Below, one piece after another: positions 2,157-11,886 of a DNA stretch of 14,116 nucleotides (within the stretch, counting starts at the first letter, position 1; every line of letters starts with the position of its first letter). The translations under genes were made by a program, and so were the position numbers. The notes below the pieces were generated by a model. It was not told where the DNA came from. It ran no database searches and saw only the letters and a list, made by a program, of their open reading frames with translations. This DNA comes from Planctomycetota bacterium (GTDB lineage: Bacteria > Planctomycetota > Brocadiia > Brocadiales > Brocadiaceae), in contig JACRII010000063.1 of the NCBI GenBank assembly GCA_016235875.1, forward strand, positions 1-14,116, read 5' to 3'.

Positions 2157-2486
2157 TTATTTCCTTAACGCAAAAGATAGGATTGCCCATATTGCAGTAA
2201 TTGTAAAAGTAGAAAAACCCAGGATTAATCCGATCATCCAGTAGATAAGCTCCTTTTTATCTTTTTCCGTCTTTATGAGTAATTCGGTTTTATCACGCTC
2301 TGTCTTTGTTAGTATATCAGTCTTGTCACGCTCTGTCTTCGTGAGTATATCAGTCTTGTCACGTTCAGTCTTTTCATATATCTGGTCGAGCCTTGAGGCA
2401 ATGTAAGTAATCTTTTCTTTGAGGACGTCTTCGTAAAGGGCCTCAAGTCTTGTAATTCTATGTTCTAATTCTTCAATCTCAGGCAT
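2157..2486 (-). CDS. Small coiled-coil protein with 11-aa tandem repeats and a C-terminal transmembrane anchor (function unknown)
   Basis: 109-aa ORF. The N-terminal segment is heptad-like (EIEELEHRITRLEALYEDVLKE). Repeats follow: TERDKTDILTK x2, TERDKTELLIK and TEKDKKELIYW. A hydrophobic tail (WMIGLILGFSTFTITAIWAILSFAL) ends in RK. Confidence 0.7.
   Translation of the reverse strand: MPEIEELEHRITRLEALYEDVLKEKITYIASRLDQIYEKTERDKTDILTKTERDKTDILTKTERDKTELLIKTEKDKKELIYWMIGLILGFSTFTITAIWAILSFALRK
2245..2376 (-). repeat. 33-bp in-frame tandem repeat (4 units, the two central-right units near-identical) inside the 109-aa CDS
   Basis: The units occupy 2245-2277, 2278-2310, 2311-2343 and 2344-2376. 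Units 2311-2343 (agtatatcagtcttgtcacgctctgtcttcgtg) and 2344-2376 (agtatatcagtcttgtcacgttcagtcttttca) share 26 of 33 bases, including the first 21. The outer units are more diverged. Confidence 0.85.
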
Positions 2487-3298: not shown

Positions 3299-4699
3299 TC
3301 ATTTTTTTATTTTTATCTCATCTCCTGTCAAATAGAATGTTGCCTTTTTACATTCCTCAAGAATGGTCATGGTTGATTCGCCGATTTTAATCTCTACTCC
3401 CGGATGAACAACTTTATGGACTAATACCTTAGCATCCTTATTAACCGATACTATTTCTTCGCTCGCGAGGTCATTTAATTTTTTTACTAACTCTTCCCTT
3501 CGGGAAAGGAGGCGATCAAATGTAGTTGTGTACTGTGGTGGAAGTTCTCCCTTTGCCTTCTGAATTGCATGGAGTGTATTAAGTTCCTTATCAACCGTTT
3601 TCAAGAGAGCTTTTAAACCACTTGTCTCTTTTCTTTTGATCATTTGACTTTGTTGTGCAGCGTAGTTAGTACCGACTTCTACGTCTGTGTGAACCTCATT
3701 ATTACTTCCCAAAGATTCGACTTCAATCATTGCTCCAGCAGTTGTTATTCCACCCTCGATAGATATCTTATCCCCACTTACTTTCACGGCATTTTTAGCA
3801 TAGATTGTACAACCCACTGCCTCTCGTAATATTATTACATTAGTTGCCACAATTGTCTGATTCCTGGCAAAGCCGATGGTTGCATCTCCTTCTGCTTCAA
3901 TTTTCCCTTTACCCGAACCAATAAAACCGCCCTTTATCAAAACGTTGCCCTTTGACTTTATTATAGAATCTTCTACCGTACCCCAAACCTCCACATCTCC
4001 TATAGCATCTAAAATAAACCCGCTTCTTACGTTTCCCTTGACGACAACCGTCCCTTTGCTTGTGATATTCCCTGTACTAAAATCAACGTCTTTTTCAACG
4101 GTACAACAAGATTTTACAGATACGGCGCCATTGGTGTATCTTACGTTTCCGTCAATAGAGGAAACCAACAATTTGGAATCCTTCTCAGATACCCTGGTAT
4201 TTTCACCCATCGGGAGTACGCATGGTTTCCCATGAACAGGGATCAACGTTTTTCCAAATACGTTTTTCCCGGGCTTCCCGAGAGTAGGGTCTATTAATTT
4301 TACCAGGGGTCGATTCTTTTCAACGTTCTCAATAATACTCACCTCGTGAAAATCAACCTTGCCATGAGCGCCCTCCTGAGGCTTGATTTTTTTATCAACG
4401 TCAAACAGAAACTCAAGCCTGCCGTTTTCACCAAAAACCGTTTGGTCTCCTTCCGCTATAAGTACATCTTCAACAGCGCTGTCTTTTAATCTGGCTTTAT
4501 CCAGGGTAGCCCCGATAACCTCTTCCTTTATTCCATAGGAAATTTTTTTCGACTGCAGGATTTGCAGCACGTCATTCACGTTGATATCAACACCCCCTTG
4601 CGTAAAGGGTTTTACCGTTAAATAGACCTTCATAAGGTCGTCAGAGACCTTGACTAAAAGGAAGTTGGTTTTGTCATTCGTTTCCGACATATTTTTCAC
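3299..4699 (-). CDS. FapA / DUF342 family protein
   Basis: 466-aa ORF. The N-terminus (LLVKVSDDLMKVYLTVKP...VLQILQSKKISYGIKEEVI) is typical of the FapA N-domain. The centre has repetitive beta-helix-like G-x-V/I segments. A coiled-coil segment follows, then the C-terminal VVHPGVEIKIGES motif. The track start is GTG at 4699. ATG at 4690, preceded by GGTGA, is the more likely start. Confidence 0.8.
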   Translation of the reverse strand: MKNMSETNDKTNFLLVKVSDDLMKVYLTVKPFTQGGVDINVNDVLQILQSKKISYGIKEEVIGATLDKARLKDSAVEDVLIAEGDQTVFGENGRLEFLFDVDKKIKPQEGAHGKVDFHEVSIIENVEKNRPLVKLIDPTLGKPGKNVFGKTLIPVHGKPCVLPMGENTRVSEKDSKLLVSSIDGNVRYTNGAVSVKSCCTVEKDVDFSTGNITSKGTVVVKGNVRSGFILDAIGDVEVWGTVEDSIIKSKGNVLIKGGFIGSGKGKIEAEGDATIGFARNQTIVATNVIILREAVGCTIYAKNAVKVSGDKISIEGGITTAGAMIEVESLGSNNEVHTDVEVGTNYAAQQSQMIKRKETSGLKALLKTVDKELNTLHAIQKAKGELPPQYTTTFDRLLSRREELVKKLNDLASEEIVSVNKDAKVLVHKVVHPGVEIKIGESTMTILEECKKATFYLTGDEIKIKK

Positions 4700-4765
4700 C
4701 GTTTATTTAACGTTGTTGAACTAATGCTAAACAAAAAGACAAGTTTTCGGCATTATTTAAAATAT

Positions 4766-4781
4766 ATCAAATTCTGTGCCA
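4766..4781 (-). promoter_or_regulatory. Candidate sigma54-type (-24/-12) promoter upstream of the FapA gene
   Basis: The minus strand reads TGGCACAGAATTTGAT, against the consensus TGGCACG-N4-TTGCW. The -24 GG and the spacing are exact. The -12 element is TTGA instead of TTGC. It lies about 75 nt upstream of the ATG at 4690. Confidence 0.3.
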
Positions 4782-4850
4782 AAAGAGCAGCAAGAAGATT
4801 TACCGCGTAGTCGTTGATGAAGTAGAGACACAGGCAAAAAGGCGGTACGT

Positions 4851-4954
4851 AACCACAGATTTCTCTGATTACACAGACGATTAGGTTTTCTTCGTTTCTT
4901 GAGTTTTTCGTGTTTCTTGCGTTAACGATATAAACCCAAGAAACCTAACGAACC
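4851..4954. repeat. Short-repeat debris (AACCACAGATT / CACRGAT family plus an imperfect inverted repeat)
   Basis: aaccacagatt at 4851 recurs at 8286 (aaccacggatt) and 8363. The sequence ttaggttttcttcg...cgttaggtttcttggg (reverse complement) forms an imperfect inverted repeat. No ORF is present. Confidence 0.45.
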
Positions 4955-4970
4955 TTTAATAATATTAATC

Positions 4971-5130
4971 GGGGCTGTCCAAAATTTATTACCATGCGAA
5001 GGTGGAACGACTAAAGCAATCTCCTGATTTTAAAGGGTTTCAAAATGGATTGCTTCCCCTTTGCGATTCTCAGGGCTTCGGCTCACAACACTTGCGATGA
5101 CAGTTGAAAATTAAACTATTTGGACAGACC
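4971..5130. mobile_element. MITE-like non-coding element bounded by 9-bp terminal inverted repeats
   Basis: ctgtccaaa (4975-4983) is the exact reverse complement of tttggacag (5119-5127). The arms enclose about 135 bp with no ORF. The flanks are ggggctgtcc and ggacagaccc. No transposase is present. Whether this is a repeat family in the genome cannot be tested from one window. Confidence 0.4.
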
Positions 5131-5287
5131 CAGGTAAATCAAGCAATTGTTGCAGGACGTCTTCTTTACCGTTGCTTATGAAAGCGAGAAATTCTTTTTG
5201 GTCAAGTTTAGCAATTTGTACAACGTTACGCCTCAGTTTCATTTTGCCGCCCTGCAAAAACGTAAACTGCAGGCGCTGGTTGGGCAT
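5111..5287 (-). CDS. 58-aa ORF (MPNQRLQFTFLQGGKMKLRRNVVQIAKLDQKEFLAFISNGKEDVLQQLLDLPGSVQIV), possibly a gene remnant
   Basis: Found by hand translation; it falls below the size cutoff of the ORF track. The ATG at 5287 is 11 nt after the stop of the upstream gene, with no clear SD. The last codons and the stop are supplied by the right arm of the MITE-like element. Confidence 0.25.
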   Translation of the reverse strand: MPNQRLQFTFLQGGKMKLRRNVVQIAKLDQKEFLAFISNGKEDVLQQLLDLPGSVQIV

Positions 5288-5298
5288 TTCTGTTTTGT

Positions 5299-6033
5299 TT
5301 AGCTCACAGCTTTTCCGATCAAGCAGTCCACGCCGCCGACAATGACCGGTCCATATAGCGTTCCTGTGATGACTGGCTCATGAGAACCAATGATGACAGC
5401 CATGAAGGCATTGAAGTCCTTTGTATTTGCGCGGATATTGTCTGTCGTCGTCTTGCGTGTGTGAAACTCATGCACCACGAACACCGCAAGAGCAGAACCG
5501 TCTCGCCAGGCTTGGATTGCAGTGCCGCAAATTGCCGTAAGGAGTTGGTATCTGACGTTATCCCATCGGTTGTTCCCTGCGGGAACGAGGGAAAGCAGTT
5601 GAGTGATTCTTTCTGGCACTCTGGTTGATTCACCAGATTCTCTGCGTTTGTTGGCTAACAGTCTGTACTCCGCGACAGTTTCGTTCCCGAAAGGTTCGTC
5701 TGCCTTTGCTTCGATACAGATTGTGATTTGTTCCTGATTAGTCCGGCCGAGTAGCCAAAGGTCATGGTTACGTCCTTCGCCTCTTTCAGGAAGTGAAGTC
5801 ACGTATTCGGGAATCCCGCGCAAGAGATGTAGATCTGTGAGCCTCCTTGAAGAATGCAGTAGTTGTATCAGTTCCTCTGGCGGTGATATCTCGGATTGAC
5901 GGAACCAAGCCTTCGCCAGTTCCATTGCGCTTCTTTCGGGTTCCCACTGGTAATCCTTTTTCGGTCGGGTCCACATTTCCCAGTTTGTGATGGGTGTGCC
6001 GTCTGGCCGCGATAGAGTCAGTGGTGTTGTCAT
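5299..6033 (-). CDS. PD-(D/E)xK nuclease-fold protein, uncharacterised family (resembles my recollection of the DUF6946-type N-terminus)
   Basis: 244-aa ORF with a strong SD (AAGGAG 7 nt before the ATG at 6033). The motif series is E76 (IPEYV), D91 (RNHDLWLL) and E108-A-K110 (ITICIEAKADEPFG). That is D-x16-ExK on predicted beta strands. The N-terminus is Trp-rich (W-x2-W-x8-W...RSAMELAKAW). GC is about 50%, against about 42% for the window. Confidence 0.55.
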   Translation of the reverse strand: MTTPLTLSRPDGTPITNWEMWTRPKKDYQWEPERSAMELAKAWFRQSEISPPEELIQLLHSSRRLTDLHLLRGIPEYVTSLPERGEGRNHDLWLLGRTNQEQITICIEAKADEPFGNETVAEYRLLANKRRESGESTRVPERITQLLSLVPAGNNRWDNVRYQLLTAICGTAIQAWRDGSALAVFVVHEFHTRKTTTDNIRANTKDFNAFMAVIIGSHEPVITGTLYGPVIVGGVDCLIGKAVS

Positions 6034-6134
6034 ATTTGTTCTCCTTGCCCAACGCCTGAGCTAAGGGGCGCGAGGTAACCATGTCAGACTGATAAAGAAA
6101 ACCGGCTAATCCCGCGTCCCTCTTGAGCGATTTG

Positions 6135-6965
6135 TTAGGCTTTCTTAAAATATGGAAAGACTGATGACATATGTATTGTTGTTTCATTTATGACCTGGGC
6201 TGCATAACAGTCTTCCCATCCATCTGCATCAAATATCTCGTTGAATTTATAATTGTGATATTCGGCTATCCAACGGTACTTTTCAAGTATTCTTATGTTC
6301 TTAAGATTCTTGTTCACGTTTTCGATAATTGATTCTTTATGGTCATGTAAGAATTCTATCTGTTCCATTCCGTCCTCATAAAGCATATTCAAATAATCGA
6401 CAAAGAAATAGCCATCGGGAGATTCCATTATGAAATTTAGATTATTCTTTTTCTCAAAGGGATTTTGTTCATTAATAATTTGCTCAACAAGAGTGCTGTC
6501 AACAATAATTCGTGGATACATTGCAACTTGCTCTAATTCATATGCTTTTATTAATCCCTGACTAAATACCATTCTTTCATTTTCAAAGTGACAACCATGT
6601 GACAAAGCCCCTCTCAAAAACATTTTCCTTAATGAAAAGTAGAGTTGTATAAAGGCTAACTCATACAAAATATAAAAGATGTTCTCTTTAGAATATTCGC
6701 ATGATACGCAAATACAATCAGAAAATAGTTTAGTTGAGAATGTCTTGCCATAATTATCATTAAGCACATTCAAAACATGCTTCAGGTGACCATCAATATA
6801 ATTTATTGTTTGTAACGCTCCTTCTCTACCCTGCATTACCAAATCTTTAAAACCAAGGATGTCTATGAAAGCGACGAGTTTATCTGGATAATTTGATTCA
6901 TTATATGAATTTACCATATACTGCCCGCTCACTAATGTATTATTGAAATACTTTAAGTCTAACAT
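6135..6965 (-). CDS. Minimal class III nucleotidyl cyclase-like (palm-domain) protein with a C-terminal helical extension; function unknown
   Basis: 276-aa ORF. VAFIDILGFKDLV matches the F-x-D-x-x-GF first metal-Asp strand (D35). KLFSDCICVS supplies the second Asp 48 residues later (D83). LRGALSHG...GLIKAYELE is in the position of the RIGIHTG...VN-AARLE segment. GC is about 32% (hand count over 13 lines). Confidence 0.5.
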   Translation of the reverse strand: MLDLKYFNNTLVSGQYMVNSYNESNYPDKLVAFIDILGFKDLVMQGREGALQTINYIDGHLKHVLNVLNDNYGKTFSTKLFSDCICVSCEYSKENIFYILYELAFIQLYFSLRKMFLRGALSHGCHFENERMVFSQGLIKAYELEQVAMYPRIIVDSTLVEQIINEQNPFEKKNNLNFIMESPDGYFFVDYLNMLYEDGMEQIEFLHDHKESIIENVNKNLKNIRILEKYRWIAEYHNYKFNEIFDADGWEDCYAAQVINETTIHMSSVFPYFKKA

Positions 6966-7041
6966 TTACTTTTATCTTTATTCTATAATTACCAATAAGT
7001 TATTTATGATATTTCAGATAAAACACTCAATAAGCATTACA

Positions 7042-8277
7042 TTATTTGCTGAACTTATTTATCACCAAACATGAATTATTTCCATCATAATCCATGGTAT
7101 TTATCAACACATTCTGGATTTCTTTTTTGAGGGGCTTTTCTATGATTAAATTCAGATTTATTTCTGGGTCCTTGTTGCTGTGATTGATGATGTGGGGTAT
7201 GAAACCTGTATTGATGGACATGACCGTAGAAATGAACTGTGCTGCGCCTGAAGCGCCGTAAGACTCCCCCACATTCGATTTGATTGCAGAGACTGGAATT
7301 TGACTGCATCCTGTGCCAAAATAAGATTGGATTGCCTTCGCCTCGACTTTATCCTGCATCTTGCATCCGTTTGCATTTGCACTGATGAGACCAACATCTT
7401 CTTTCTTAACTCCTGCACCTGTCAGGGCATCATGCATGGCTTTTTCGACACGTCGCACTCTTATGTCTTCCGGGTGTTTCTTGCCTCCTACAAATGTGCT
7501 TCCAAAGCCTCTTATTTCGGCATAAATGTGAGCACCCCGGTCTAATGCGTGTTGGAGTTCTTCAAGAATAATTACGTAACTGCCTTCTGACATGACAAAT
7601 CCGTTTCTTGTTTTATCAAAGGGCAGGCTTTCCTCTTTTACACCGTCTAGGCCGGACAGAAGGCCACGTAAATAAAATATCAGAAATAAATCAATGGAAA
7701 TCTGCTCTACCCCCCCTGCCAAGATTATCTTTGCCATACCTCTTTGAATCATTTTATAGGCATCCCCAAGGGCATCGGTACTTGACGTGAAACCAGCAGA
7801 AATAGTGCGCGCAAGTCCCTTGATTTTAAAGATGACCGATACGTAGTTAATTGACGAATTCAAGGCAACGTCGTAACTGAGCATGGGTGATAGTTCGGAT
7901 GGATTATTCCGGATAATTTCATAGAAATAGTCTGTCGTCTCAGAAAAATTGCCCAGAGACGAGCCTATGATAATCCCCATCTGATTCGACAACGACCCGT
8001 CCTGCGGCAGTTTTGCATCGTCCAACGCCATCTTAGAGGCAGACCCCAAAAACCGTGTGCCTTTGTTTAAATATTTTAAACCTTTGCTGCCGAGGTACAC
8101 TTCGGGTTTAAGGTCTCTGACCTCACCGCCCAGTTTGCATTTGTAAGGAGAGAGGTCGAGAGAAATCATGGGTGCGATGCCTGACTTTCCCTCAATGAGA
8201 TTATTCCAGAACGCCTCTTTGCCGCAGCCAAGAGGGGAGACAACTCCTATACCGGTAATAACGACTCTCTTTTTCAT
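7042..8277 (-). CDS. Ketosynthase-fold protein lacking the Cys-His-His triad (chain-length-factor / KS-beta-like partner)
   Basis: 411-aa ORF, alignable along its length to the KS at 8443-9654 (MKKRVVITGIGVVSPLG...). The active-site Cys position reads ISAGFTSS (Phe163, codon 7789-7791). The HGTGT position reads ANANGC. The GH-x-x-GA position reads GESYGASGA. Confidence 0.85.
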   Translation of the reverse strand: MKKRVVITGIGVVSPLGCGKEAFWNNLIEGKSGIAPMISLDLSPYKCKLGGEVRDLKPEVYLGSKGLKYLNKGTRFLGSASKMALDDAKLPQDGSLSNQMGIIIGSSLGNFSETTDYFYEIIRNNPSELSPMLSYDVALNSSINYVSVIFKIKGLARTISAGFTSSTDALGDAYKMIQRGMAKIILAGGVEQISIDLFLIFYLRGLLSGLDGVKEESLPFDKTRNGFVMSEGSYVIILEELQHALDRGAHIYAEIRGFGSTFVGGKKHPEDIRVRRVEKAMHDALTGAGVKKEDVGLISANANGCKMQDKVEAKAIQSYFGTGCSQIPVSAIKSNVGESYGASGAAQFISTVMSINTGFIPHIINHSNKDPEINLNLIIEKPLKKEIQNVLINTMDYDGNNSCLVINKFSK

Positions 8278-8280
8278 ATA

Positions 8281-8442
8281 CTTTTAACCACGGATTAACA
8301 CGGATGTACACAGATATAAAACATTATAACTCACCGCAAAGACGCAAAGTGCGCGAAGAATTAACCACAGATTACTACACACAAACACGGCTAAAGACGT
8401 AAATGATGGGTTCACTTCGCCCTTCGCACACTCAGGACAGGC
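8281..8442. repeat. Intergenic short-repeat debris (CACRGAT heptamers, AACCACRGATT x2, GC-rich tail)
   Basis: aaccacggatt is at 8286 and aaccacagatt at 8363. CACRGAT occurs at 8289, 8299, 8309 and 8366. The sequences ctcaccgcaaagacgcaaagtgcgcgaag and gggttcacttcgcccttcgcacactcaggacaggc resemble dispersed junk repeats seen in many uncultured-bacterium genomes. No ORF is present. Confidence 0.5.
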
Positions 8443-9654
8443 TTAACCCATCCTACTGAATATCGTGGTGGCGTTATTGCCGCCAAATGCGAATGAATTA
8501 TTGAGCACATGGCTTATTTTTAATTCTCGCGCCTTATTCGGTATATAATCAAGGTCACATTCCGGGTCGGGCGTTTCGTAATTGATTGTTGGAGGCGCTA
8601 TTCCATGCCTCAGTACCAGACAGCAGATGACCGATTCTACGGCGCTTGCTGCGCCCATAAGGTGACCAATCATGGATTTTGTGGAACTGCAAGGAATTTT
8701 ATAGGCACGTTCACCAAAGACGCGTTTTATGGCGGTGGTTTCTGTTTTGTCATTATGGGGAGTTCCTGTACCATGTGCGTTGATGTAACCAATGTCTGCT
8801 TGAGAAAGGGTTGCCATTTTTAATGCATCACTCATGCATTTTACAGCACCATCTCCTTCGGGATGTGGCGCAGTCATGTGGAATCCATCGCAACTCAGCC
8901 CGTAACCCGCCATTTCAGCAATAATCTGTGCCCCTCGTTTTTTCGCAAATTCATAGCGTTCCATGATCAATATTCCAGCCCCCTCGCCAATCATGAGGCC
9001 CTGGCGGTTTTTATCAAAGGGCTGGCAGCGTTCAGGCGCTAAGGCCTTGAGGTTGTGAAAGTGGGTAAATTCCGTTTGGGGAATCATGTCGCCACCCCCT
9101 ACCATCATCACGTCCACCTTGTTTTCCATAAGAAGCTCACACGCCCAGGCAATGGCGTGATTGCCAGACGAGCAGGCATTCAGCGAGATCATGGTTGGAC
9201 CTTCAAAATCAAAATATTGAGCCAGGATGTTTGTGATAGAATTGGGAGGATAAACGGCTGCAACGATTTTATCAAAACCGTTATCTTTTCTAGAAGTATC
9301 TAACCTCAGAAGCCTTTCAAAAGGCGTCAATTCGGCTGCTAATGTTCCCATGGCGATACCGAATCGCTCTTTATCGAAATTATTATCATTTAGTAAACCG
9401 CTTTCTTGCAGCGCCTCTCTAGCTGCATAGTAAACATATTTATGGATGGTGTTTTCCTTGATCTGGTTTTCCAATTCAAAATCCCACTGGAAATTCTTTA
9501 CCTCGCAGGAACGATGCACCTTGTATTTTGAGGTATCGAATGACTTCATCTCATTGGTGCCGTTCCTGCCCTGGATGAACGATTCCCAGCTTTGTTTGAC
9601 ACCGATTCCAACGGGTGTGACCAATCCCAATCCTGTAATTACGACCTTTGACAT
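8443..9654 (-). CDS. Beta-ketoacyl-ACP synthase, FabF/KAS II family, catalytically intact
   Basis: 403-aa ORF. Cys161 lies in ISLNACSSGN (codon 9172-9174 verified). His294 lies in INAHGTGTPHND. His331 lies in STKSMIGHLMGAASA. The C-terminus is the typical NSFAFGGNNATTIF. Confidence 0.9.
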   Translation of the reverse strand: MSKVVITGLGLVTPVGIGVKQSWESFIQGRNGTNEMKSFDTSKYKVHRSCEVKNFQWDFELENQIKENTIHKYVYYAAREALQESGLLNDNNFDKERFGIAMGTLAAELTPFERLLRLDTSRKDNGFDKIVAAVYPPNSITNILAQYFDFEGPTMISLNACSSGNHAIAWACELLMENKVDVMMVGGGDMIPQTEFTHFHNLKALAPERCQPFDKNRQGLMIGEGAGILIMERYEFAKKRGAQIIAEMAGYGLSCDGFHMTAPHPEGDGAVKCMSDALKMATLSQADIGYINAHGTGTPHNDKTETTAIKRVFGERAYKIPCSSTKSMIGHLMGAASAVESVICCLVLRHGIAPPTINYETPDPECDLDYIPNKARELKISHVLNNSFAFGGNNATTIFSRMG

Positions 9655-9677
9655 AGTGTTCGTTTTTTAAGTTATTA

Positions 9678-9766
9678 GTAGGGTGGATTAAGGCGTTGGT
9701 TTTTGCGCCGAATCCACCAAACTATTTCCAGGAAAGGTGGATTCGCACTTGCTTAATCCACCCTAC
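9678..9766. repeat. Nested inverted-repeat element carrying four GGTGGATT cores in + - + - order
   Basis: The outer arms gtagggtggattaag (9678-9692) and cttaatccaccctac (9752-9766) are perfect 15-bp complements. The inner arms cgaatccacc (9709-9718) and ggtggattcg (9736-9745) are perfect 10-bp complements around a 17-nt loop. Confidence 0.8.
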
Positions 9767-9814
9767 GCAAAACCGCATGAACAAAATGAAAATTCCTGAG
9801 CATTAAAACAAGAG

Positions 9815-9853
9815 AGGTCAACTATTCACCTTTCAATGCGAATAAGTTGACCT
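9815..9853. repeat. 9-bp inverted repeat (aggtcaact ... agttgacct) with a 21-nt loop
   Basis: 9815-9823 is the exact reverse complement of 9845-9853. It lies in the spacer between the radical SAM gene and the KS gene. Confidence 0.5.
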
Positions 9854-9924
9854 ACGATGATCAAACCACAAACGTTGAATTAGGCCTTTGGTGACTTATA
9901 CATACACATTTTCGCAACAGATGT

Positions 9925-9990
9925 CCACCCCCTTCACCCCCGCCAGCGGGGGACAGATGGTTGTCCCTCTCAGTGAGGGGGATTAAGAGG
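9925..9990. repeat. GC-rich hairpin element (REP-like), copy 2, with two short hairpins
   Basis: cccccg-ccag-cggggg spans 9937-9952 and ccctc-tcagt-gaggg spans 9965-9979. The lead-in ccacccccttcaccccc resembles the lead-in of the 3241-3282 element. It starts about 35 nt downstream of the radical SAM stop. Confidence 0.55.
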
Positions 9991-10024
9991 GAGGCGCGTT
10001 TGTTTGAAATTCCTAAACATTAAA

Positions 10025-11503
10025 TTATGATGATACCTCAACCGGCTTCAATTCAATCTTTTTTCCGGATGTTTCCATTTGACTGTGTCGTTTTAATGCC
10101 TCATCGTAAACCCCTGATGCTTGCAGTTCTTTTAAATTTTGAATCAAGTGTTGATAGACACTCTGCCAGTCCAGGTTTACTCTGAATGCAAACATGGCGG
10201 CATTCATGTTATCTTTATGTACTTCTTTTGCATTCTGGAATCTTTGCCGTAATACTTCTGTAGAGTAAATTTTGTCGTATAAATATTGGAAGCCATCAAT
10301 AAGTTCCTGGAGAGACATGTTTTTAAGGACGTAGGTTAGGTGATGAGACGTGTAATACTTCCAATCTTCAGGGAAGTCTGTCCTGAAAAGTCTTCCATCT
10401 CCGTTCAGTCTGTGATACAGCGGTGTATTGATGAATGGACATAGGATACCGCAGGTCATAATATCAACGTGCGAATCCAGGACGAAATCAGCAACCTGTT
10501 TAAAGGTTTCAGGGGTATCGGCATCGTTCCCAAAGACCATCGTCCCCCAAACAGCGAGACCGTGTTTACGTATATTGGCAATGGCCTCAAAATAATTCTC
10601 AATCGAGATGCGCAGGTTTACATTTTTATTCATCGTTTTCAGGGCTTCTTCATTGATGGATTCGATCCCAATTAATACCCCGACACACCCGCTCTTCTTC
10701 ATATATTCAAGGGTTTCGTCGTCCTGATAGATATTGAGAGATGTAAAACCGAACCAGTTTTGGTAAATTCCTCTTTCAACCATTCCCTTAAAAAGGTCTC
10801 GGACACGCTCATTGGATTTTTTGCTATGCCCATAAAAATTTTCATCCGTTAATATCAAACCGCGATATTGACCTTTGATGGATTCAAACTCATCAAGGAC
10901 ATCTTCAATCGGCCTTTCACGATATTTCCTGCCCTGGAACTGAGGCACTGAGCAGAACTCACAGCTAAATGGGCAACCCGCGGTTGTTATAATACCTGAA
11001 TACCGGTATTTATATTTATCCTTTAAATATTTCCTATCAGGACGCAATCCCTGATATAACTCCATCGGTGTCAGGACACCATCGTATCTTTTTTGGAGAC
11101 AGCCATTTTCAAAATCGCTAATAATCTTTTCCCATGTGGTTACGGCTTCTCTGGTCACGACACAATCCACGTATTTTGCCGCCTCTTCAGGATAACTGGT
11201 GACATGAATGCCGCCCATAATCACAGGTATACCCCGTTTTTTACAGGCAATTGCTATTTGATATGCACGATGTGCCTGATAACTCACCGATGTAATGCCA
11301 ACAAGGTCGGCTTCACCAAAGGTAATATTTCCTGTATCGTCAATCGCAAGCCCCTGGGTTTCATCTATAATATCAACCTGCCAGTGTTTTGGCGTTAATA
11401 CCTTTAGATATCCGAGATTTACAGGCATTTGATTTAATACAGAGACGTTTTCCTCGCCAACATTTCCAATCGGATGCGGGTTAATTAGTACGAGCTTTTT
11501 CAT
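10025..11503 (-). CDS. B12-binding domain-containing (class B) radical SAM enzyme
   Basis: 492-aa ORF. The N-terminus is a cobalamin-binding-type Rossmann segment (DLVGITSVSYQAHRAYQIAIACKKRGIPVIMGGIHVTSYPEEA). The CxxxCxxC motif is AGCPFSCEFCSV (Cys177/181/184, codons 10952-10975 verified). A long C-terminal extension is typical of this class. Confidence 0.9.
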   Translation of the reverse strand: MKKLVLINPHPIGNVGEENVSVLNQMPVNLGYLKVLTPKHWQVDIIDETQGLAIDDTGNITFGEADLVGITSVSYQAHRAYQIAIACKKRGIPVIMGGIHVTSYPEEAAKYVDCVVTREAVTTWEKIISDFENGCLQKRYDGVLTPMELYQGLRPDRKYLKDKYKYRYSGIITTAGCPFSCEFCSVPQFQGRKYRERPIEDVLDEFESIKGQYRGLILTDENFYGHSKKSNERVRDLFKGMVERGIYQNWFGFTSLNIYQDDETLEYMKKSGCVGVLIGIESINEEALKTMNKNVNLRISIENYFEAIANIRKHGLAVWGTMVFGNDADTPETFKQVADFVLDSHVDIMTCGILCPFINTPLYHRLNGDGRLFRTDFPEDWKYYTSHHLTYVLKNMSLQELIDGFQYLYDKIYSTEVLRQRFQNAKEVHKDNMNAAMFAFRVNLDWQSVYQHLIQNLKELQASGVYDEALKRHSQMETSGKKIELKPVEVSS

Positions 11504-11886
11504 GAATGTTCCTCATATTTTGGTACCAAAAGTACCTGTGCAATGGCATAATCCTGGCAATGTGATAATGATACTGCGATATCGCTAATATGTTTCCTGT
11601 CTGCCAATTCTTTTACACTTCCATAAAGATTCACGTAGGGCCTGCCATTTTCGTCGTTTAACAGTTCGATATCCGTCCATTTCATTTTACCAACCCAACC
11701 AGTTCCCAAGGCCTTGAACATGGCCTCTTTTGTAGCAAAGCGAGCTGCAAAATGCTGATATTTGTTTTTCTTTGGTTTACAATATTCAACCTCTTTTTCC
11801 GTGTAAATTTTTTTAAGAAAACCCTCATTGGCAGAAAACAATCTCTCAATGCGTTTTATTTCAATAATATCAATTCCAACATACAT
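11500..11886 (-). CDS. acpS: Holo-[acyl-carrier-protein] synthase (AcpS-type 4'-phosphopantetheinyl transferase)
   Basis: 128-aa ORF with GIDIIEIKRI, FAARFATKEAMFKALGTG and AVSLSHCQDYAIAQVLL, at the length typical of AcpS. Its TGA overlaps the radical SAM ATG in the sequence ATGA (11500-11503). Confidence 0.9.
   Translation of the reverse strand: MYVGIDIIEIKRIERLFSANEGFLKKIYTEKEVEYCKPKKNKYQHFAARFATKEAMFKALGTGWVGKMKWTDIELLNDENGRPYVNLYGSVKELADRKHISDIAVSLSHCQDYAIAQVLLVPKYEEHS

What the first reader, a model, noticed from the sequence alone, without database searches (positions are those of the whole stretch)
5111..7041. Accessory mosaic between the lipid cassette and FapA: candidate two-gene cyclase plus nuclease conflict module
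A putative signal-generating palm enzyme is followed 101 nt downstream, on the same strand, by a putative nuclease effector. This generator-plus-effector logic matches cyclic-nucleotide defence systems, but I do not recognise this domain pairing as a described system. The effector shows no obvious cNMP-binding, SAVED or CARF domain. Against a co-evolved operon, the two genes differ by about 18 GC points (252/780 versus 333/660, hand-counted). The switch falls exactly at the stop of the cyclase-like gene (6135), so they may be independent insertions into the same hotspot. Either reading makes this about 1.9 kb a horizontally acquired patch, flanked on the left by MITE-like debris.
Basis: inference. 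Interest (0 to 1): 0.75.

Follow-up and report, generated by a model that had tools for sequence, protein, structure and literature searches.

The report
Two unrelated cassettes in defence hotspot
The cyclase-like gene and the nuclease-like gene are real and horizontally acquired, but they are two unrelated single-gene insertions side by side in a fast-changing defence-gene hotspot, not a signalling-plus-effector system.

Summary
Two intact minus-strand genes lie 101 nt apart, with 32% versus 51% GC in a 41% GC window.

- **Gene A (6135-6917, 260 aa):** it has no Pfam, NCBIfam or PADLOC match. Its confident AlphaFold model matches class III adenylyl/guanylyl cyclases, and both metal-binding aspartates are conserved.
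- **Gene B (5299-6033):** this is DUF6946, a published putative PD-(D/E)xK endonuclease.
- **The pair is not a module.** None of about 129 gene A loci carries DUF6946, and none of 12 other DUF6946 contexts carries gene A.
- **One related strain separates them.** It has the DUF6946 cassette (97% nt identity) directly after the same KAS gene, without gene A.
- **No signal receptor.** Gene B shows no recognisable sensor domain.
- **The site is a defence hotspot.** In 54 related loci the KAS-to-FapA interval ranges from 0 to 7 kb. It holds Avs3, a type II restriction-modification system, Shedu, PD-T4-6, Mrr, NACHT, PIN and IS200 genes.

What remains of interest is gene A's family: about 4,000-16,000 clusters at 50% identity, usually stand-alone, found in prophage-like viral contigs, plasmids and type I restriction-modification loci, and uncharacterised.

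The parts
6135..6917 (-). Gene A: 260-aa stand-alone protein, 32% GC. It has an N-terminal class III cyclase-homology (palm) fold (about residues 26-190 of the 276-aa ORF numbering) and a family-specific C-terminal helical domain.
   Evidence: - No Pfam, PADLOC or NCBIfam hit; matches phrog_23933 at 1e-34.
- AF2 pLDDT 92. Foldseek PDB hits are class III AC/GC and a uridylate cyclase, TM to target 0.5-0.7.
- Conservation: D35 50/50, D83 49/50, R118 49/50, G119 50/50, K229 and W232 50/50.
- Start at M17.
6918..7041 (-). Conserved backbone between the KAS stop codon and the start of the variable region. The spurious ATG at 6965 lies inside it. The hotspot boundary is at about 6958, and position 7018/7019 is a recurrent insertion point.
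   Evidence: blastn against 54 related loci is colinear to 6952-6964 in many of them. Small insertions at 7018/7019 occur in L161, L162, L163, L184, L190 and L194.
6034..6134 (-). 101-nt spacer, 52.5% GC, containing a GC-rich hairpin with no T-run.
   Evidence: GC content. Fold energy -36.8 kcal/mol, z = -2.2. No terminator-like or convincing promoter-like site was found here.
5299..6033 (-). Gene B: 244-aa DUF6946 protein, 51% GC, a putative PD-(D/E)xK endonuclease.
   Evidence: - Pfam PF22187 at 5.6e-35, clan CL0236, EndoMS-like (PMC10584680).
- Invariant E38, D91, E108, K110 and Q163.
- AF2 pLDDT 95, a single compact domain with alpha-beta-beta-beta-alpha-beta order.
5243..6055 (-). DNA extent of the mobile DUF6946 unit: the gene plus about 22 nt upstream and about 56 nt downstream.
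   Evidence: 88-91% nt identity to L082-L086, which sit in unrelated contexts. 96.9% identity over 5135-6055 to L162.
5128..5225 (-). Frame-disrupted 5' remnant of an AbiEii-like nucleotidyltransferase gene.
   Evidence: - 22 copies in 18 related loci, all in the same orientation.
- Intact 175-aa versions begin MTKKEFLNFISNGKEDVLQQLLDLL... and match Pfam AbiEii at 4e-5.
- The window copy has stop codons.
4971..5131 (.). 161-bp segment bounded by 13-nt inverted repeats (12/13 complementary). It is absent from the closest relative, L153.
   Evidence: Inverted repeat I15. L153 joins 5128-5225 directly to about 4948. Only one other partial copy was found, in L151, so MITE status is unproven.
4700..4962 (-). 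Conserved FapA upstream region, the other boundary of the hotspot.
   Evidence: Colinear with related loci up to window 4905-4962.
7042..8277 (-). Flanking core gene: beta-ketoacyl synthase (KAS2), last gene of the ACPS / radical-SAM / KAS / KAS cassette.
   Evidence: Pfam ketoacyl-synt. 71-94% aa identity in 54 related loci.
3299..4699 (-). Flanking core gene: FapA (DUF342).
   Evidence: Pfam FapA and FapA_N. Present downstream of the variable interval in related loci.

Best explanation
Window 4963-6958 is the current content of a hypervariable accessory-gene hotspot. It is bounded by core genes: KAS2 on one side and FapA (or the OYE reductase) on the other. In this lineage the hotspot is repeatedly refilled with anti-phage genes.

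**What the interval holds here**
- Two independently acquired, unrelated, stand-alone single-gene cassettes.
- Wreckage of an earlier occupant, an AbiEii-like toxin gene remnant.

**Gene A (shown)**
- It has the class III nucleotidyl-cyclase fold.
- Both metal-binding aspartates (D35, D83) and the phosphate-contacting Arg-Gly (R118-G119) are conserved.
- The canonical transition-state Asn/Arg pair is replaced (I/V139, E143).

**Gene A (inferred)**
- It works as a head-to-tail dimer that turns over NTPs by two-metal catalysis.
- It is regulated by its family-specific C-terminal helical domain (invariant K229, W232).
- It acts without a dedicated neighbouring effector. Either NTP conversion itself is the effect, or the product acts on unlinked targets.

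**Gene B (shown)**
- It is DUF6946, with an intact E...D...ExK nuclease motif.

**Gene B (inferred)**
- It is a Mg-dependent DNA endonuclease acting alone.
- No methyltransferase or signal-binding domain accompanies it. A modification-dependent (type IV-like) or structure-specific (EndoMS-like) specificity is therefore most likely.

**The pairing**
Their adjacency is a by-product of the hotspot. DUF6946 most likely occupied the site first, the state seen in L162, and gene A then landed between KAS2 and DUF6946. The order of events is inferred.
For: **No co-occurrence**
- 0 of 80 genome loci with gene A homologues carry DUF6946 within 6 kb.
- 0 of 44 viral-contig loci do.
- None do in the three closest metagenomic contexts, at 55-67% identity, or in two Bacillus plasmids where the gene is monocistronic.
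- 0 of 12 other DUF6946 contexts carry a gene A homologue.

**Separability at the same site**
- L162 has KAS2 followed directly by the DUF6946 cassette, with no gene A. It is 96.9% nt identical over 5135-6055, against only 85.8% for KAS2.
- Gene A is absent from all 54 related loci.

**Different origins**
- GC is 32% versus 51% against a 41% host background.
- The 813-bp DUF6946 unit is 88-91% nt identical in unrelated genomes.

**Hotspot behaviour**
- The interval is 0-7.2 kb long, and 144 ORFs fall into 110 clusters.
- Its content includes Avs3 (5.5e-212), a type II restriction-modification system, SduA, PD-T4-6, Mrr_cat, NACHT, PIN, DUF4238 and IS200.

**Folds and motifs:**

**No sensor domain in gene B:**

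**Gene A relatives in defence or mobile settings**
- Type I restriction-modification plus PDC-M30.
- HNH neighbours.
- 85 plasmids.
- phrog_23933.
Against: - The two genes are co-oriented, 101 nt apart, with no recognisable terminator or promoter between them. Co-transcription in this genome cannot be excluded.
- A nucleotide-binding pocket in DUF6946 that is not a recognisable domain cannot be ruled out from sequence.
- The defence role of either gene rests on guilt by association. Only a minority of gene A's immediate neighbours in 80 genomes hit PADLOC models.
- Only 12 DUF6946 contexts were sampled.
Confidence: 0.82

Rival explanations
1. This is a genuine two-gene signalling system, as in the reader's headline. 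The cyclase-like enzyme makes a nucleotide messenger on infection, and that messenger activates the DUF6946 nuclease. This would be a Pycsar-, CBASS- or type III CRISPR-like logic with a new domain pair.
For: - The genes share a strand and have a short spacer with no terminator-like site.
- Gene A has a cyclase fold with intact metal ligands.
- Gene B has an intact nuclease motif.
- The locus is a defence hotspot.
Against: - There is no co-occurrence in about 129 gene A loci or 12 other DUF6946 loci.
- L162 has DUF6946 at this very site without gene A.
- The GC difference is 19 points.
- The DUF6946 unit moves alone as an 813-bp block.
- DUF6946 is a single compact domain with no cNMP-binding, SAVED or CARF region.
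- Neither protein hits any PADLOC model.
Confidence: 0.04
2. The genes are independent cassettes, but gene A is not a host defence gene. It would instead be a mobile-element gene of prophages and plasmids with another role, such as counter-defence (decoy or messenger-mimicking nucleotide synthesis), superinfection control or regulatory signalling. On this reading it merely rides into hotspots with mobile DNA.
For: - The family matches a phage orthologous group.
- It occurs on 44 IMG/VR contigs and 85 plasmids.
- In 19 of 80 genome loci a ParA-like ATPase lies immediately upstream.
- Integrases neighbour it in 6 loci.
- Only a minority of its neighbours are known defence genes.
Against: - Its closest relatives sit inside type I restriction-modification / PDC-M30 loci and next to HNH nucleases.
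- In the window it sits in a slot that holds Avs3, restriction-modification, Shedu and similar genes in sister strains.
- No match was found in 50,697 sequenced phage genomes by tblastn.
Confidence: 0.2
3. One or both genes are decaying, non-functional passengers in a junkyard region.
For: The interval contains clear wreckage: the AbiEii-like remnant at 5128-5225 with stop codons. Turnover in the hotspot is fast.
Against: - Both ORFs are full length relative to their families.
- Both retain every invariant catalytic residue.
- An identical gene A protein is on record under a second NCBI name, a Planctomycetes MAG protein.
Confidence: 0.05

Closest known systems
Pycsar (PycC pyrimidine cyclase plus a cNMP-activated effector)
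   Same: Gene A shares the class III cyclase fold, and a uridylate cyclase (8jsz) is among its Foldseek hits. It sits in a defence-island setting.
   Different: - No PADLOC Pycsar model is hit.
- There is no adjacent effector with a cNMP-binding domain; the neighbour is DUF6946 only.
- The family has no conserved partner across 124 loci.
- The canonical Asn/Arg transition-state pair is absent.
Class III adenylyl/guanylyl cyclases (for example Rv1625c, Ma1120, soluble guanylate cyclase)
   Same: - The fold matches, with TM to target 0.5-0.7.
- The 'VAFIDILGF' and 'K-x-F-S-D' motifs align with 'VLFADIVGF' and 'K-V-S-G-D' of Rv1625c.
- The Arg-Gly strand motif is present.
- Tandem-duplicated family members have one degenerate half, as in pseudo-heterodimeric cyclases.
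   Different: - Sequence similarity is below significance: E = 1.5-2.5 for the profile against PDB, and only one of 50 members touches Pfam Guanylate_cyc, at 0.01.
- It has an extra, conserved C-terminal helical domain.
- The Asn/Arg pair is not conserved.
- It has no sensory or membrane domains.
Minimal CRISPR polymerase (mCpol, Panoptes) and Cas10 / GGDEF palm enzymes
   Same: These also have a palm domain with two acidic metal ligands. Some are small enzymes that make nucleotide signals in defence. This comparison rests on my own knowledge plus the abstract of PMC12657230 seen.
   Different: Foldseek places gene A with class III cyclases. GGDEF hits are weak and no Cas10 or mCpol appears in the top 50. 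No 2TM or CARF partner is present.
EndoMS/NucS and type II / type IV restriction endonucleases (PD-(D/E)xK, Pfam clan CL0236)
   Different: - There is no sequence-level match to any solved nuclease.
- My Foldseek search found only a weak BamHI hit, TM 0.23.
- No cognate methyltransferase is present in the window.
- The substrate is unknown.
Core-gene-flanked defence hotspots, as described for E. coli (PMC10121019) and, from my own knowledge, Pseudomonas aeruginosa
   Same: Conserved flanking core genes bracket highly variable content that is enriched in known defence systems across sister strains.
   Different: - This is a Planctomycetes MAG lineage.
- The flanks are a lipid-synthesis KAS gene and FapA.
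- No integrase or tRNA lies at the site within the window.
- Cassettes appear to be exchanged through flanking homology and gene-remnant repeats.

Membership tests
Pycsar | Cyclase belongs to the PycC sequence family | tested here: not met
   There is no PADLOC hit for gene A or for any of 50 family members at E <= 0.01. Similarity is at fold level only.
Pycsar | Adjacent effector carries a cyclic-nucleotide-binding domain fused to a TIR, TM or other killing domain | tested here: not met
   The downstream protein matches only DUF6946 over residues 25-240 and models as one compact domain.
Pycsar | Cyclase and effector are conserved as an operon across genomes | tested here: not met
   0 of 124 gene A loci carry DUF6946 and 0 of 12 other DUF6946 contexts carry gene A.
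Pycsar | Produces cCMP or cUMP on infection | not testable with these tools
   This needs enzymology.
CBASS | CD-NTase (Pol-beta fold) signal synthase | tested here: not met
   Gene A has a class III cyclase palm fold. There is no CD-NTase hit in Pfam or PADLOC.
CBASS / type III CRISPR nuclease effectors (Cap4, NucC, Can1, Card1) | Nuclease fused to or gated by a SAVED, CARF or oligonucleotide-binding module | tested here: not met
   Only DUF6946 was detected, and the model is a single domain.
Class III nucleotidyl cyclase (cyclase homology domain) | beta-alpha-alpha-beta-beta-alpha-beta palm fold | tested here: met
   AF2 pLDDT is 92. The top 50 Foldseek PDB hits are almost all class III cyclases or cyclase-like proteins, with probability 1.00.
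Class III nucleotidyl cyclase (cyclase homology domain) | Two metal-binding aspartates, on strand 1 and at the beta2-beta3 hairpin | tested here: met
   D35 is conserved 50/50 and D83 49/50. They align to the equivalent motifs of Rv1625c.
Class III nucleotidyl cyclase (cyclase homology domain) | Transition-state Asn and Arg in the 'G-D-T-V-N-x-A-S-R' helix | tested here: not met
   By motif alignment the equivalent positions are I/V139 and E143. The correspondence rests on my reading of the motif, not on a structural superposition.
Class III nucleotidyl cyclase (cyclase homology domain) | Significant match to Pfam Guanylate_cyc (PF00211) | tested here: not met
   Gene A has no hit. One of 50 relatives hits at E = 0.01.
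DUF6946 (PF22187; PD-(D/E)xK clan CL0236) | Match to the family model above Pfam's gathering score | tested here: met
   121.1 bits against a cut-off of 27, E = 5.6e-35.
DUF6946 (PF22187; PD-(D/E)xK clan CL0236) | Conserved E / D / ExK catalytic residues | tested here: met
   E38, D91, E108 and K110 are invariant in 41 sequences. The published active-site superposition on EndoMS is in PMC10584680.
DUF6946 (PF22187; PD-(D/E)xK clan CL0236) | Restriction-endonuclease fold recovered by structure comparison | tested here: inconclusive
Type II restriction-modification system | Cognate DNA methyltransferase adjacent to the endonuclease | tested here: not met
   There is no methyltransferase in the window near 5299-6033, and none is consistently adjacent in the other contexts.
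Integron gene cassette | attC site and GTTRRRY core at cassette boundaries, with an integron integrase | tested here: not met
   The repeated 95-100-bp element is a gene remnant, not an attC site. Sequences after the conserved '...AATGTT' junction do not fit RRRY consistently.
Defence island / hotspot | Same core-gene-bounded site holds different known defence systems in related genomes | tested here: met
   54 related loci were compared. Their content includes Avs3, a type II restriction-modification system, SduA, PD-T4-6, Mrr_cat, NACHT and PIN.

The most novel reading that the evidence does not exclude
Gene A represents a very large, undescribed family of stand-alone class III-cyclase-fold enzymes. 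There are about 4,000 clusters at E <= 1e-30 and about 16,000 at E <= 1e-3 among representatives at 50% identity. They are carried by prophage-like viral contigs, plasmids and defence islands. On this reading the family is a self-contained immune (or counter-immune) module: a nucleotide-converting enzyme whose own C-terminal helical domain senses infection and which needs no dedicated effector gene. A sub-branch is paired with a ParA-like ATPase.
Probability: 0.3. Interest if true: 0.65.

Novelty: new member of a known kind. Interest (0 to 1): 0.3.

Why it matters
The proposed new cyclase-plus-nuclease defence system would have been a notable discovery, and the data show it is a chance juxtaposition. 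That result guards against calling systems from adjacency alone inside hotspots.

Three points remain useful:
1. A well-defined defence hotspot, bounded by core genes, in a Planctomycetes MAG lineage.
2. Evidence that DUF6946, known only as a "putative restriction endonuclease" from a structure-mining paper, moves as a single-gene unit of about 0.8 kb. It lands among defence genes, which supports an immune role.
3. A very large cyclase-fold family with no Pfam, NCBIfam or PADLOC model. It is a reasonable candidate for experimental testing as a single-gene phage-defence or counter-defence enzyme.

Tried and rejected
- **Integron cassette array.** Rejected. The recurring 95-100-bp element is the 5' end of an AbiEii-like gene, and the junctions lack a consistent GTTRRRY core.
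- **MITE for 5128-5225.** Rejected for the same reason. MITE status of 4971-5131 remains open, with only one other partial copy found.
- **Rfam scan of 4600-7100.** Nothing at E <= 1.
- **Promoter and terminator scan.** Uninformative, with counts at shuffle level.
- **Sequence searches against PDB.** Both proteins and both profiles were tried. Only marginal adenylate-cyclase hits appeared for gene A, and none for gene B.
- **Foldseek for gene B.** Nothing significant.
- **tblastn of gene A against sequenced phages.** No match.
- **A conserved partner for DUF6946.** The downstream neighbours in L195, L196 and L197 are unrelated to one another.
- **Fused effector domains in longer gene A relatives.** No Pfam domain was found in nine of them.
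- **Literature searches.** Searches for a described stand-alone cyclase-fold defence family found nothing matching.
Full report
**Source and layout**

The window matches contig DBJWYS010000012.1 of assembly GCA_052360725.1. A protein identical to the 260-aa form of gene A is named by NCBI as from a Planctomycetes MAG. All genes in the region lie on the minus strand. In transcription order they are:
- ACPS, a B12/radical-SAM enzyme, KAS1 and KAS2 (7042-8277)
- gene A
- gene B
- FapA (3299-4699), a GNAT acetyltransferase and an OYE-type reductase

**Observation**

The ORFs 6135-6965 and 5299-6033 exist and are separated by exactly 101 nt. GC content is as follows:

| Segment | GC |
|---|---|
| Gene A | 251/783 = 32.1% |
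| Gene B | 375/735 = 51.0% |
| 101-nt spacer | 52.5% |
| Whole window | 40.9% |

One correction concerns the start of gene A:
- DNA conserved downstream of KAS2 in sister strains runs to about 6958 and contains the ATG at 6965.
- Every homologue begins at the residue aligned with M17.
- The database copy is 260 aa.

Gene A is therefore 6135-6917.

**Gene A**

It has no hit in Pfam, PADLOC or NCBIfam, and the same holds for 50 relatives. It does match phrog_23933, of unknown function, at 1e-34.

The AlphaFold model built with a 50-sequence alignment is confident (pLDDT 92, pTM 0.87). The 50 best Foldseek matches in the PDB are almost all class III adenylyl or guanylyl cyclases or cyclase-like proteins, plus a Pycsar-type uridylate cyclase. 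Probability is 1.00 and TM normalised to the target is 0.5-0.7. The viral structure library gives giant-virus cyclase domains and weak GGDEF hits.

Conserved residues fit the fold:
- D35 in 'VAFIDILGF' is conserved 50/50.
- D83 in 'K-x-F-S-D' is conserved 49/50.
- R118-G119 are conserved 49/50 and 50/50.
- A marginal profile alignment to Rv1625c puts D35 and the K79...D83 hairpin on the cyclase's own 'FADIVGF' and 'KVSGD' motifs.

By motif alignment, which is my own reading and not a superposition, the canonical transition-state Asn and Arg are replaced by I/V139 and E143. The C-terminal 80-90 residues form a helical domain with invariant K229 and W232, which is specific to this family.

The family is very large. 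Among representatives at 50% identity, 15,853 clusters match at E <= 1e-3 and 3,989 at E <= 1e-30. Nearly all members are 240-290 aa and stand-alone. A few are tandem duplications in which one half has lost the acidic ligands, for example P0241 with 'FYN' in place of 'FSD'. That is what a head-to-tail dimer with a single active site would allow.

**Gene B**

It matches Pfam DUF6946 at E = 5.6e-35 over residues 25-240. That family was created from AlphaFold-database mining. It is described as a putative new restriction-endonuclease family with an EndoMS-like active site, and was placed in the nuclease clan CL0236 (PMC10584680).

In my 41-sequence alignment E38, D91, E108, K110 and Q163 are invariant. 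The confident model (pLDDT 95) has these residues on a helix-strand-strand-strand-helix-strand core.

**Are the two genes a system?**

No, on four lines of evidence.

1. *Gene A loci lack DUF6946.* I built HMMs from both alignments and searched six-frame ORFs around every homologue I could fetch.
   - None of 80 genome loci with a gene A relative has DUF6946 within 6 kb. These were the best 80 of at least 415 found in one genome per species.
   - None of 44 viral-contig loci does.
   - The closest relatives with usable contigs do not either. P0011 (67% identity) sits next to an HNH_5 gene. P0004 (61%) sits next to DUF6236 and a DUF4160/DUF2442 pair. P0017 (55%) follows hsdR-hsdM-hsdS and the PADLOC candidate system PDC-M30.
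   - In Bacillus cereus-group plasmids the gene is monocistronic and opposed to its neighbours.
2. *DUF6946 loci lack gene A.* Twelve other DUF6946 contexts, including relatives 75-94% identical, have no gene A homologue. Their neighbours are unrelated to one another.
3. *The DUF6946 unit moves alone.* Window 5243-6054 is 88-91% nt identical to contigs with entirely different flanks. The similarity stops about 22 nt upstream and about 56 nt downstream of the gene.
4. *A related strain separates them at the same site.* A scan with KAS2 returned 54 related loci at 71-94% aa identity.
   - Gene A is in none of them.
   - DUF6946 is in one, L162, directly after KAS2. It is 96.9% nt identical over 5135-6055, while KAS2 itself is only 85.8% identical.
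   - The cassette has therefore been exchanged more recently than the strains diverged, and it exists at this very site without gene A.

**What the site is**

Across the related loci the distance from KAS2 to FapA, or to the OYE gene where FapA is missing, ranges from 0 to 7.2 kb. The 144 ORFs in the interval fall into 110 sequence clusters. Thirty-four representative ORFs include:
- Avs3 (5.5e-212)
- a type II methyltransferase plus an MvaI/BcnI endonuclease
- Shedu SduA
- the PD-T4-6 kinase
- Mrr_cat, NACHT with an inactive REase domain, PIN, DUF4238 and an IS200 transposase

Even the closest relative by FapA (L153, 94% nt identity) carries different genes. This is a defence hotspot bounded by core genes.

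**The left-flank "debris"**

The 95-100-bp element at 5128-5225 recurs 22 times in 18 related loci, always in the same orientation. It is the start of a small gene beginning MTKKEFL.FISNGKEDVLQQLLDLL... Intact 175-aa copies match the AbiEii toxin family. In the window it is broken by stop codons.

Next to it, 4971-5131 is bounded by 13-nt inverted repeats and is missing from L153. Only one other partial copy was found, so a MITE is possible but not shown.

**Mechanism**

*Shown*
- The folds and the catalytic motifs of both proteins.
- Their independence from each other.
- The hotspot.

*Inferred for gene A*
- It is a dimeric two-metal NTP-converting enzyme controlled by its own helical domain.
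- Because the family has no conserved effector neighbour, it acts either through the conversion itself or on unlinked targets.
- A defence role is suggested by the slot it occupies and by relatives inside type I restriction-modification loci.
- Its presence on prophage-like viral contigs and plasmids, together with a ParA-like partner in 19 of 80 loci, leaves a mobile-element or counter-defence role open.

*Inferred for gene B*
- It is a solitary Mg-dependent endonuclease.
- With no methyltransferase partner, modification-dependent or structure-specific cleavage is the most likely way it spares the host.

**Transcription**

There is no terminator-like site in the spacer. It contains only a GC-rich hairpin without a T-run, and no convincing promoter. 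Read-through from gene A into gene B cannot be excluded. That would make them co-expressed neighbours, not a system.

**Verdict**

The domain calls and the horizontal origin are supported. The headline "cyclase plus nuclease module" is not supported.

Interest in the finding as posed is low. The uncharacterised cyclase-fold family is the part worth following up.

Noticed in passing
window 4963-6958, and loci L141-L194 between KAS2 and FapA/OYE: The interval is a defence hotspot bounded by core genes. Sister strains carry Avs3, a type II restriction-modification system (MvaI/BcnI), Shedu, PD-T4-6, Mrr, NACHT, PIN, DUF4238, IS200 and pentapeptide-repeat genes. 144 ORFs fall into 110 clusters.
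   Followed up: yes
window 5128-5225; L149:7287-7814, L145:15650-16177, L163:8136-8669: A 95-100-bp repeat found once or twice per related locus is the 5' end of an AbiEii-like nucleotidyltransferase gene. It is intact in some strains and reduced to a stub in the window and many others. Same-orientation copies flank cassettes of 0.5-2.4 kb and could drive cassette exchange by recombination.
   Followed up: partly
window 7018/7019; L161:2210-2495, L162:1377-1542, L184:742-835, L190:290-384: A small element of 95-290 bp is inserted at the same point 23 nt after the KAS2 stop codon in several sister strains but not in the window. It runs 'TTGATAAGAGGGAG...TCCGTATAATAGTATAA...CATGAAATCTG'.
   Followed up: no
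L147:1364-1939, L151:1712-2414, L193:133-710 (window equivalent 7044-7126): In three sister loci an insertion of about 0.4-0.6 kb directly after KAS2 is followed by a second copy of the last ~83 bp of KAS2. In two of them it encodes an 80-aa ORF. This resembles the target duplication or 3'-end replacement made by site-specific integrating elements.
   Followed up: no
L015-L019, L027, L030, L033, L037, L038, L040, L048, L054, L055, L060 and others, about 4900-5990: In 19 of 80 genome loci, a distant sub-branch of the gene A family (about 30% identity) has a ~350-aa ParA/MinD-type ATPase (Pfam AAA_31, CbiA) immediately upstream on the same strand. This may be a conserved two-gene unit.
   Followed up: partly
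proteins P0241, P0252, P0356: These are tandem-duplicated gene A homologues of 475-531 aa. In P0241 the first half has lost the metal-binding motif ('FYN' in place of 'FSD', 'INF' in place of 'LGF') while the second half keeps it. This recalls pseudo-heterodimeric class III cyclases.
   Followed up: partly
window 2157-2486 (-): A 109-aa ORF with no Pfam match has three to four tandem copies of a ~10-residue unit (TERDKTDILTK) followed by a C-terminal hydrophobic helix.
   Followed up: no
window 7042-11886 (-): The 'lipid cassette' comprises a phosphopantetheinyl transferase (ACPS), a B12-binding radical-SAM enzyme with DUF4070, and two KAS genes. It is conserved at 71-97% aa identity across the 54 related metagenomic loci.
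   Followed up: no
L137:4029-5938: The gene A homologue P0017 lies directly after a PADLOC candidate system PDC-M30 (a GMT-wHTH protein plus DUF5131, 3e-117) and a complete type I restriction-modification operon.
   Followed up: partly
L200:1-5561 and L199:8029-9899: Close DUF6946 relatives sit beside an N6 methyltransferase, a HATPase_c_3 protein and an HNH gene in L200. In L199 they sit near a resolvase and a C5 DNA methyltransferase. No consistent partner emerges.
   Followed up: partly
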